Numbered from the stretch's first letter, positions 11,291-11,750 are shown. The stretch: DNA of 14,062 bases from Escherichia coli (GCF_003334385.1 NZ_QOWN01000066.1); one strand, 5' to 3'. Notes: generated from the letters alone by a model not told the origin. Made by a program: numbers and translations.

Positions 11291-11316
11291 GCAGGGTTTA
11301 TCGCCCTGCTTTTTTT
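11291..11316 (+). terminator. Plus-strand rho-independent terminator (stem GCAGGG / CCCTGC, loop TTTATCG, then T7)
   Basis: Read directly from the sequence. The T-tract only fits a + strand transcript; the minus-sense RNA has no U-tract. Overlaps the stop codon of the 144-aa gene. Confidence 0.55.
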
Positions 11317-11750
11317 CATTCCGGGCAGCGGCGCAGTGCCAGCGCGAGCGCTTTCATCTTCCAGCCTTCCGGCGTGCGGTACATCACCTTCCAGTAGCCG
11401 TCGATGAACACATAATGGAAGCGCACCTCTTCAGTGCTTTCAGTGGCAATAGCCTCCATGAAAGAACGGTACTCACGCGCCTCACTGTCCATCCGGAAAC
11501 CACTGTCACGTCCGTAATAAGCCGTCACACCGTCCACCGGGTTCTGAAGCGTATGCCCGGCGGGTTTGTCGCAACGGGGACCAAGGCAACGGATATCACC
11601 GTGTTCAACCAGGGCTTCGGCCTGCTGACCGGTGGCATAGTGGGTATGCAGGATGCGACCGTTCCAGGTCGGCTCCCCGTGCAGGTGGCAGTAAACGGTA
11701 CGGAACACCCCGTCGCGGCAAAAAACGGAAATCGTGCTGCTGACTGTCAT
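11316..11750 (-). CDS. Hypothetical His/Cys-rich protein, 144 aa
   Basis: ATG at 11750..11748 with a GAAGGAGA Shine-Dalgarno 7 nt upstream; the ORF-track extension to 12341 is read-through of the GC-rich repeat. Motifs CHLHGEP...HTH...CLGPRC. First gene behind hairpin-repeat copy 2. Confidence 0.65.
   Translation of the reverse strand: MTVSSTISVFCRDGVFRTVYCHLHGEPTWNGRILHTHYATGQQAEALVEHGDIRCLGPRCDKPAGHTLQNPVDGVTAYYGRDSGFRMDSEAREYRSFMEAIATESTEEVRFHYVFIDGYWKVMYRTPEGWKMKALALALRRCPE

What the first reader, a model, noticed from the sequence alone, without database searches (positions are those of the whole stretch)
11316..11750. His/Cys-rich 144-aa protein directly behind hairpin copy 2
The spacing of CHLHGEP, HTH and CLGPRC suggests a small metal-binding protein. 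It is not PsiB-like or RadC-like by the motifs I checked. Its position as the first gene behind a candidate ssDNA promoter makes it another early-expression candidate.
Basis: inference. Interest (0 to 1): 0.6.

Follow-up and report, generated by a model that had tools for sequence, protein, structure and literature searches.

The report
Early plasmid gene ygcA, function unknown
The 144-residue reading frame is a real, conserved gene (ygcA, wrongly labelled "PndC" in databases) that sits first behind a single-strand DNA promoter in the part of an IncI-type resistance plasmid that enters a new cell first. It belongs to a very large, completely uncharacterised protein family shared with giant phages, so it is a sensible but unproven candidate for a plasmid establishment or anti-defence factor.

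Summary
**Observation: confirmed.** The ORF runs 11750→11316 on the − strand and encodes 144 aa, with AAGGAGA 8 nt before the ATG. It is the first gene behind an Frpo/ssi-type hairpin repeat.

**What it is**
- The window is the oriT and leading region of an I-complex plasmid.
- The gene is ygcA. It is 143/144 identical to the pESBL gene that lies directly behind one of that plasmid's three class-1 ssDNA promoters, and it occurs in about 2,000 plasmids.
- dN/dS is 0.16.

**Database name.** The label "post-segregation killing protein PndC" is a misnomer. There is no hok gene nearby, and the real pnd locus lies next to trbA.

**Protein family**
- There is no Pfam, NCBIfam or PADLOC hit.
- It matches PHROG 1987/23089 (unknown function).
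- The family has at least 8,900 clusters at 50% identity, mostly phage-like.

**Metal-binding idea: only partly supported**
- H22 and H66 are invariant across the family, and H24 replaces an invariant Asp.
- C55 and H35 are lineage-specific, and the "CLGPRC" motif is not conserved as a whole across the family (C60 recurs in about a third of members).
- The plasmid clade has replaced five of about sixteen invariant residues.

**Function: unknown.** The best guess is an early establishment or anti-defence effector. Interest is moderate.

The parts
11316..11750 (-). ygcA coding sequence, 144 aa. Databases call it 'hypothetical protein' or, wrongly, 'post-segregation killing protein PndC'.
   Evidence: ORF and translation. 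143/144 identical to pESBL WP_000218858. Named ygcA in LC567075. dN/dS 0.16. PHROG 1987/23089 at E 1e-20. AF2 pLDDT 94.9.
11758..11764 (-). Shine-Dalgarno sequence AAGGAGA, 8 nt upstream of the ATG
   Evidence: Read directly from the sequence. Identical in the pESBL copy.
11780..12300 (+). Hairpin copy 2: a class-1 (Frpo/ssi-type) ssDNA promoter homologue on the transferred (+) strand. The long stem spans roughly 11847-12030. It is a mosaic of ssi3-like, ssi1-like and ssi2-like segments.
   Evidence: Repeat with 8912-9261. ssDNA fold z = -8.75. 92.6% identity over 550 nt to the region 5' of pESBL ygcA. Matches both Frpo regions of F. Mosaic structure shown by alignment.
12316..12336 (-). Terminator-like stem-loop followed by a T-run, upstream of the hairpin. 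Probably the end of the preceding klcA operon.
   Evidence: Consensus scan only.
10958..11224 (-). Next gene downstream, 88 aa, hypothetical. Probably co-transcribed with ygcA.
   Evidence: No NCBIfam hit. No homologue next to phage YgcA-like genes.
8912..9261 (+). Hairpin copy 1, an ssi1-type ssDNA promoter homologue in front of the DUF4942 gene (8888->8037)
   Evidence: 97% identical to the region 5' of the pESBL DUF4942 gene.
7430..7475 (+). oriT core: inverted repeat GGAATGTC...GACATTCC followed by the nick-region motif CATCCTG|T. It sets the + strand as the transferred strand, with the leading region at coordinates above 7475.
   Evidence: The motif is the MOBP/IncP-type nick consensus as I recall it; nikA and nikB lie on the other side.

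Best explanation
**Shown**
- The ORF is ygcA, a genuine gene under purifying selection in the leading region of an I-complex (IncI1/K/B/O/Z) conjugative plasmid.
- It is the first gene behind a class-1 Frpo/ssi-type hairpin.
- It is encoded so that the incoming transferred strand is its template.

**Inferred from the 143/144-identical pESBL orthologue and published RNA-seq and 5'-RACE**
- ygcA is transcribed from the folded single-stranded hairpin within minutes of entry into the recipient, and is shut off once the plasmid becomes double-stranded.

**The protein**
- It is a compact alpha/beta domain from a very large family with no described function and no structural neighbour. In isolates the family is found in giant and T4-like phages and in the early region of a Rac-like prophage.

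**Most likely mode of action (inference)**
- It is an early establishment or anti-defence effector that works through a pocket lined by the family-invariant residues Y20, H22, H66, Y79, R81 and D82. That pocket probably binds a metal ion or a phosphorylated/nucleotide-like ligand.
- The plasmid clade has rewired this pocket (T3V, D24H, Y26E, S54R, R83S). I expect either altered specificity or binding rather than the ancestral catalysis.

**My estimates**
- Identity and early expression: about 0.9.
- Anti-defence or establishment role: about 0.4.
- Metal- or ligand-binding mechanism: about 0.3.
For: **Gene reality**
-, plus dN/dS 0.16.

**Plasmid context**
- trbC, nikB, nikA, oriT, DUF4942, Rpn and klcA are all present.
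- The nick motif is on the + strand.

**Hairpin homology**
- To F Frpo1 and Frpo2.
- To the three pESBL elements 5' of ssb, ygcA and the DUF4942 gene.

**Literature**
- Six induced operons with mapped start sites, and class-1 promoters the strongest (PMC12672017).
- 'PndC' is listed among the genes of the ssi operons in IncI plasmids (PMC10104558).
- A family annotated 'PndC' ranks 23rd among families enriched in leading regions: 2,203 members, T-strand orientation, median position 7 from oriT (PMC11541004 supplement).

**Phage and prophage contexts**
- Homologues sit in early-type gene arrays in phages and a prophage.

**Conserved polar and aromatic residues, and the clade-specific replacements**
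-.
Against: - No functional evidence of any kind exists for any family member. All AFDB and phage homologues are 'hypothetical'.
- There is no PADLOC, Pfam or NCBIfam hit.
- No fused domain or conserved neighbour points to a pathway.
- I could not read gene-level expression values; the paper's figure and supplements are not held.
- No clear -35/-10 consensus was found in the hairpin arms.
- I could not test whether the conserved His residues cluster in space.
- Loss of five invariant residues could also mean decay of the ancestral activity.
Confidence: 0.5

Rival explanations
1. It is PndC, the Mok-like component of the pnd (Hok/Sok-type) post-segregational killing system, as most database records name it.
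For: The name is attached to the exact sequence in NCBI and UniRef. It is repeated in two papers.
Against: - There is no hok-family gene anywhere in the window.
- In pESBL the Hok/Gef gene lies about 14 kb away, beyond nikAB and trbABC.
- The real pndC is adjacent to trbA and is part of the IncI1 pMLST trbA-pndC locus (PMC2887853).
- tblastn found no similarity between YgcA and the pnd region.
- Current RefSeq calls the protein 'hypothetical protein'.
- Homologues occur in lytic giant phages, which have no use for post-segregational killing.
Confidence: 0.02
2. It is an active enzyme with the ancestral activity of its family. For example, it could be a hydrolase or modifying enzyme acting on a nucleotide-derived molecule such as an immune signal. 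The substitutions would then only tune the activity.
For: - The family has about 16 near-invariant residues that are mostly polar or aromatic: T3, S5, Y20, H22, D24, Y26, S54, H66, Y79, R81, D82 and R83. That is typical of an active site.
- YgcA keeps H22, H66, Y79, R81 and D82.
- D24H together with Y26E, and R83S together with S54R, could relocate an acid and an arginine rather than delete them (inference).
Against: - Five invariant positions are replaced at once. None of the 242 other representatives has His at position 24.
- Residues 84-86, next to the RD motif, vary even within the plasmid clade.
- No similarity to any known enzyme fold was found.
Confidence: 0.2
3. It is a Cys/His zinc-binding protein that binds DNA or RNA and regulates other leading-region genes.
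For: - All 5 Cys and 7 His are conserved between plasmid copies that differ at 20 other residues.
- C21-H22 and H66 are conserved family-wide.
Against: - Cys positions 55, 60, 62 and 76 come and go independently across the family, and there is no conserved CxxC or CxxH pair.
- No zinc-finger or HTH Pfam hit was found.
- The Cys+His excess is modest (p = 0.025).
Confidence: 0.1
4. It is an early establishment factor unrelated to defence. It might help the single- to double-strand conversion, recircularisation or replication start, or adjust recipient physiology.
For: - Other genes behind class-1 promoters (ssb, the ParB-like yfjB/yfhA, psiB) act on ssDNA handling and host responses rather than on defence systems (YfjB preprint abstract).
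- The gene is part of the IncK2 core genome (PMC12987596).
Against: Homologues occur in lytic phages that inject double-stranded DNA, so a function specific to conjugative ssDNA is unlikely to be ancestral. No experimental data exist.
Confidence: 0.2
5. It is a dispensable passenger with no current function, conserved only because I-complex backbones are young.
For: About 98% of plasmid copies are at least 95% identical. This shows recent common ancestry rather than long-term constraint.
Against: - dN/dS is 0.16 at dS 0.5 against the divergent Salmonella copy, and the hairpin-gene arrangement is conserved there too.
- The reading frame is intact in about 2,000 plasmids.
- The gene is retained even in this lineage, which has lost the ssb-psiBA-ardA block.
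Confidence: 0.05

Closest known systems
Class-1 ssDNA-promoter (Frpo of F; ssi1-3 of ColIb-P9/pESBL) early operons of plasmid leading regions
   Same: - Same hairpin family: blast matches to both F Frpo regions and to all three pESBL ssi elements.
- Same orientation relative to the nick site.
- ygcA is the first gene behind the element, as ssb is behind Frpo2/ssi3.
   Different: - The cargo gene is not one of the characterised ones (ssb, psiB, psiA, yfjB).
- F has no ygcA.
- The hairpin in this window is a mosaic of the three pESBL elements.
PHROG 1987 / PHROG 23089 (phage proteins of unknown function, e.g. GAP32_348, KVP40.0229, S-PM2p016, CcrPW gp089c)
   Same: - Full-length HMM match at E 1e-20, with 27-39% identity.
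- Same start and same length of about 130-145 aa.
- Shared invariant residues S5, Y20, C21, H22, G25, Y38, H66, Y79, R81, D82, Y113 and W120.
   Different: - YgcA replaces T3, W23, D24, Y26, S54 and R83, and inserts one residue after G84.
- Canonical relatives at 44-48% identity do not have these changes.
- YgcA is on a plasmid behind an ssDNA promoter rather than in a phage early-gene array.
Known leading-region anti-defence proteins (ArdA, KlcA/ArdB, PsiB, anti-CRISPRs)
   Same: - Same genomic niche and small size.
- Same transcription orientation, and the same expected timing.
- klcA lies about 1.4 kb upstream.
   Different: No sequence or fold similarity to any of them. No activity has been shown.
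PndC/Mok of the pnd Hok/Sok-type toxin-antitoxin locus
   Same: Only the database name.
   Different: Different locus, no adjacent Hok toxin gene, and no sequence similarity.

Membership tests
Class-1 Frpo/ssi ssDNA-promoter early operon | The gene lies in the leading region, with the transferred strand as its template | tested here: met
   The nick motif CATCCTG|T is on the + strand at 7468-7475 after an inverted repeat, and nikAB lies on the other side. ygcA is sense on the - strand, 4.3 kb from nic.
Class-1 Frpo/ssi ssDNA-promoter early operon | Immediately preceded by a long hairpin homologous to Frpo/ssi | tested here: met
   ssDNA fold z = -8.75. Blast matches to F upstream of ssb and at a second F leading-region site. 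92.6% identity over 550 nt to the pESBL element 5' of ygcA.
Class-1 Frpo/ssi ssDNA-promoter early operon | Recognisable -35/-10 elements reconstituted in the stem | tested here: inconclusive
   Consensus scans found none at 8 or more of 12 matches. The published elements are imperfect, and I could not read the supplementary figure.
Class-1 Frpo/ssi ssDNA-promoter early operon | Transient induction in transconjugants, with the start site in the hairpin | not testable with these tools
   Reported for the six pESBL operons (PMC12672017).
pnd (Hok/Sok-type) type I toxin-antitoxin, PndC component | Overlaps or adjoins a Hok-family toxin gene | tested here: not met
   tblastn with pESBL Hok found nothing in the window. 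In pESBL, hok lies about 14 kb from ygcA.
pnd (Hok/Sok-type) type I toxin-antitoxin, PndC component | Sequence similarity to the pnd locus next to trbA | tested here: not met
   tblastn of YgcA against the pESBL pnd region gave a best E of 0.26 over 7 residues. The position of the real locus comes from PMC2887853.
PHROG 1987/23089 (YgcA-like uncharacterised family) | Full-length profile match | tested here: met
   E 1.3e-20 and 4.4e-19 over residues 1-126. A profile search returned 8,963 representatives.
PHROG 1987/23089 (YgcA-like uncharacterised family) | The family's near-invariant residues (T3, S5, Y20, H22, D24, G25, Y26, Y38, S54, H66, Y79, R81, D82, R83, Y113, W120) | tested here: not met
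   11 of 16 are kept. V3, H24, E26, R54 and S83 replace residues that are at least 95% conserved in 242 representatives. YgcA is a divergent subclade rather than a canonical member.
Cys/His zinc-binding proteins | A conserved set of four Cys/His ligands | tested here: inconclusive
   - C21 (86%), H22 and H66 are conserved.
- C55 is unique to the clade, C60 is present in 32%, and Cys patterns are not coupled.
- There is no zinc-finger Pfam hit.
- Spatial proximity could not be measured.
Known anti-restriction / anti-CRISPR / SOS-inhibitor families | Profile or fold match to ArdA, KlcA/ArdB, PsiB, an Acr, or any solved anti-defence protein | tested here: not met

The most novel reading that the evidence does not exclude
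YgcA and its 9,000-cluster family may be a previously unrecognised protein fold that giant phages, prophages and I-complex plasmids use in the first minutes after DNA entry to neutralise a host immune system or its signalling molecule. The family would do this through a His/Asp/Arg-lined pocket. The plasmid branch, with five rewired invariant residues, would have been retargeted to a different host factor or converted from enzyme to binder.
Probability: 0.3. Interest if true: 0.75.

Novelty: new member of a known kind. Interest (0 to 1): 0.45.

Why it matters
I-complex plasmids (IncI1, IncK, IncB/O/Z) are major carriers of ESBL and AmpC resistance genes in people and livestock. What they express in the first minutes in a new host helps decide whether transfer succeeds.

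**Why ygcA stands out**
- It is one of only three first genes behind the strongest class of ssDNA promoters in these plasmids.
- It is present in about 2,000 sequenced plasmids.
- It is retained even in this lineage, which has lost ssb, psiB, psiA and ardA.
- It has no known function.

**The naming problem.** The gene is currently filed under a wrong name. A leading-region family carrying that PndC label, very probably this one, was counted as toxin-antitoxin-related in the main survey of leading regions.

**Wider value.** The family is very large and shared with giant phages. It has no Pfam entry and no structural neighbour. Finding its function would annotate thousands of phage and plasmid genes at once.

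Tried and rejected
**Searches with no useful hit**
- Pfam on the protein and on a six-member alignment: no hit even at E 10.
- NCBIfam and PADLOC: nothing.
- PDB by sequence and by profile: only chance hits.
- Foldseek against PDB: best E 0.8.
- AFDB50: 162 hits, all named 'uncharacterized' or 'PndC'.
- Rfam on the whole window: nothing.

**Context and fusion approaches**
- Long family members were scanned against PHROGs for informative fusions. Only unknown-function families and one PF10902 tail turned up.
- Conserved-neighbour test: the 88-aa downstream gene has no homologue beside phage or prophage YgcA-like genes.
- Genomic contexts of four distant homologues are arrays of small unknown ORFs, or a Rac-like prophage early region.

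**Promoter and literature**
- Sigma-70 consensus search in the hairpin arms: none found.
- Literature searches for ygcA and PndC found no functional study.

**Readings rejected**
- The PndC/toxin-antitoxin reading.
- The 341-aa extended ORF 11316-12341, an artefact of the stop-free GC-rich hairpin.

Full report
**1. The observation**

It runs from the ATG at 11750 to the TGA at 11316-11318 on the − strand and encodes 144 aa. The sequence is MTVSSTISVFCRDGVFRTVYCHLHGEPTWNGRILHTHYATGQQAEALVEHGDIRCLGPRCDKPAGHTLQNPVDGVTAYYGRDSGFRMDSEAREYRSFMEAIATESTEEVRFHYVFIDGYWKVMYRTPEGWKMKALALALRRCPE.

The start codon is secure:
- AAGGAGA lies 8 nt upstream of the ATG.
- The mechanical ORF list also shows a 341-aa frame starting at a GTG at 12341. 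All family members aligned begin at the same Met.
- The long frame, and the 171-251-aa database entries, are therefore artefacts of a stop-free, GC-rich hairpin.

The protein has 5 Cys and 7 His, which is 8.3% of residues against 4.4% in the window's other proteins (p = 0.025). That is a mild enrichment, not a striking one.

**2. Where the window comes from, and which strand enters first**

The window holds trbC, the relaxase nikB, nikA, a DUF4942 gene, Rpn-family genes, DUF1380 and klcA.
- One of several equally scoring best matches (about 95% identity) in the plasmid collection is an IncK2/Z, MOBP, MPF_I plasmid. At least 5,000 records match part of the region.
- Between nikA and the next gene there is an inverted repeat followed by CATCCTG|T on the + strand at 7468-7475. 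From my own knowledge this is the MOBP-type nick-region motif.
- The + strand is therefore the transferred strand, and it enters from 7475 upward.
- Genes on the − strand, including ygcA 4.3 kb from nic, can then be transcribed directly from the incoming single strand.

**3. The hairpin**

- A 355-nt repeat at 11780-12128 is 85% identical to 8912-9261.
- As single-stranded DNA, the + strand of 11751-12180 folds into a long stem-loop at −133.9 kcal/mol. Shuffled sequences give −89.9 ± 5.0, so z = −8.75.
- It matches two sites in plasmid F. One lies just upstream of ssb. The other lies in the leading region between the hok-family gene and a small hypothetical gene. From what I recall of the literature, these are the positions of Frpo2 and Frpo1.
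- In the IncI1 plasmid pESBL it matches three elements, lying immediately 5' of ssb, of the ygcA orthologue and of the DUF4942 gene.
- Wen et al. 2025 (PMC12672017) report for pESBL that six leading-region operons are induced up to about 500-fold 15 min after mating. Each is preceded by a hairpin with a 5'-RACE-mapped start. Three of those hairpins are the Frpo-like ssi1-3, called 'class 1', which are the strongest.
- The pESBL protein is 143/144 identical to the window's.
- By position, ygcA is therefore the first gene of the middle class-1 operon. I infer this is ssi2.
- A terminator-like hairpin at 12336-12316 separates this unit from the klcA operon upstream.
- I found no clear −35/−10 consensus in the arms.

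**4. The database name is wrong**

The exact sequence is on at least 1,000 contigs and is widely called 'post-segregation killing protein PndC'. A figure legend in Benz & Hall 2023 repeats the name. In Samuel et al. 2024 (Supplementary Table 1), a family with that annotation ranks 23rd among families enriched in leading regions. It has 2,203 members, T-strand orientation and a median position of 7 from oriT, and is filed as 'Hok/Sok TA related'. From its size, position and label I infer that this is ygcA.

The evidence against the name:
- The real pndC is the reading frame next to trbA, used in IncI1 pMLST (PMC2887853).
- In pESBL the Hok/Gef gene lies beyond nikAB and trbABC, about 14 kb from ygcA.
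- The window has no hok homologue, and YgcA has no similarity to the pnd region.
- Current RefSeq says 'hypothetical protein'. One record uses the R64-style name ygcA.

**5. The protein family**

Profile and distribution results:
- There is no Pfam, NCBIfam or PADLOC hit.
- PHROG 1987 and 23089, both of unknown function, match over the full length at E 1e-20.
- In plasmids the gene is confined to 2,016 records, 98% of them at least 95% identical. They come from Escherichia, Salmonella, Shigella and Klebsiella.
- Among 50,697 phage genomes only about 70 carry a homologue, and nearly all of the records listed are 170-380 kb. They include GAP32-like jumbo phages, KVP40-like vibriophages, cyanomyoviruses and Colossus-like Caulobacter phages, and every hit is 'hypothetical'.
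- A profile search of 1.84 billion cluster representatives gave 8,963 hits at E ≤ 1e-3 and 5,814 at E ≤ 1e-10.
- The contexts I sampled are runs of small unknown ORFs, or the early region of a Rac-like Klebsiella prophage between an antiterminator and kilR-recET.
- Fusions are uninformative.

Structure:
- AlphaFold2 with 114 sequences gives pLDDT 94.9 and pTM 0.89.
- Foldseek finds nothing in the PDB (best E 0.8).
- AFDB50 returns only uncharacterised relatives from bacteria, archaea and viruses.
- On these searches the fold has no solved structural neighbour.

**6. Is it a metal-binding protein?**

In 242 representatives the near-invariant positions are T3, S5, Y20, H22, D24, G25, Y26, Y38, S54, H66, Y79, R81, D82, R83, Y113 and W120. 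C21 is present in 86%.

- **CHLHGEP** overlaps the family's YCHWDGY. C21 and H22 are conserved, and H24 stands where every other member has Asp.
- **HTH:** H37 is present in about 70% of members, and H35 is not conserved.
- **CLGPRC:** C55 is unique to the plasmid clade. C60 occurs in about one third of members, and Cys positions do not co-occur as a zinc site would.

An H22-x-D/H24 … H66 arrangement is a plausible metal site, and Asp-to-His keeps a ligand. This is inference only, because I could not measure distances in the model.

The plasmid clade has replaced five invariant residues at once (T3V, D24H, Y26E, S54R, R83S) and inserted one residue next to the RDRGE motif. Relatives at 44-48% identity keep all of these. 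The replacements are fixed under purifying selection: dN/dS is 0.16, and all Cys and His are kept in an 86%-identical copy. That pattern suggests a changed function rather than decay.

**7. Verdict**

- **Positional claim:** correct, and it agrees with published work on a near-identical plasmid.
- **Metal-binding claim:** a reasonable hypothesis for three histidines only.
- **Function:** unknown. My best guess is an early establishment or anti-defence effector acting through the conserved pocket, with perhaps a 0.4 chance for the role and less for the mechanism.
- **Status in the literature:** the gene has been catalogued (and misnamed) but never studied.

Noticed in passing
window 11751-12420, compared with L007 (pESBL) 8500-9221, 14870-15545 and 18560-18946: **Hairpin copy 2 is a mosaic.**
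- Its distal flank (about 12310-12420) is near-identical to the pESBL element in front of ssb.
- Its central stem (about 11900-11960) is identical to the ssi1-type copy in front of DUF4942.
- Its proximal part, including the ribosome-binding site, is identical to the element in front of ygcA.

**Consequence.** This lineage goes straight from the klcA operon to ygcA and lacks the ssb-yfhA-psiB-psiA-ardA block of pESBL. That looks like recombination or gene conversion between the ssi repeats.
   Followed up: partly
window 10958-11224 (- strand): The 88-aa gene just downstream of ygcA has no family hit. By its names and position it may belong to the largest leading-region family in Samuel et al. 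2024 (rank 1, 4,739 members, 'YdaB/YdfB/YgdA', median position 6). This was not verified. A hairpin followed by a T-run on the + strand at about 11272-11312 lies between the two genes.
   Followed up: partly
window 9747-9956 and 9979-10950 (- strand): Two adjacent Rpn-family genes: a full-length 323-aa copy and a 69-aa piece that matches only the C-terminal end of the family profile. Direct repeats at 75-79% identity lie between them (9768-9877/9991-10100 and 9885-9917/10132-10164). This looks like a partial tandem duplication.
   Followed up: no
window, whole; pattern YATCCTGY: The nick-region octamer occurs 8 times in 14 kb, against 2.0 expected. None of 200 shuffles reached 8. Five of the eight lie on the + strand in the leading region or at oriT: 7468, 10114, 10921, 11101 and 13233. 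Significance unknown.
   Followed up: no
window 9356-9464: An AT-rich pair of repeats (AAAAAGTGAAATTTCTTCACTTT, both direct and inverted; 42-nt units 67 nt apart) lies immediately upstream of the + strand HTH regulator gene at 9465-9716. It is a possible operator or promoter.
   Followed up: no
window 11316-12341 and L001 10119-10433: The stop-free, GC-rich hairpin regions generate spurious long ORFs. In the window there is a 341-aa frame, and several frames of 100-130 aa on both strands. At least one is annotated as 'hypothetical protein' in RefSeq, and it causes N-terminally extended 'PndC' entries of 171-251 aa.
   Followed up: partly
P0091, P0100 (metagenomic relatives, 498 and 680 aa): Two long relatives carry the YgcA-like domain at the N-terminus. 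It is followed by several small segments, each introduced by a repeated 'KMATGG(G)V' motif. That motif resembles the family's own N-terminus (MATRS), as if several small genes were strung into one polyprotein.
   Followed up: no
L009 (Klebsiella oxytoca prophage) 4525-6114 and 8001-8396: A DUF4942 protein and a YgcA-like protein lie within 2 kb of each other in a Rac-like prophage early region. In I-complex plasmids, these same two families are the first genes behind the two oriT-proximal ssDNA promoters.
   Followed up: no
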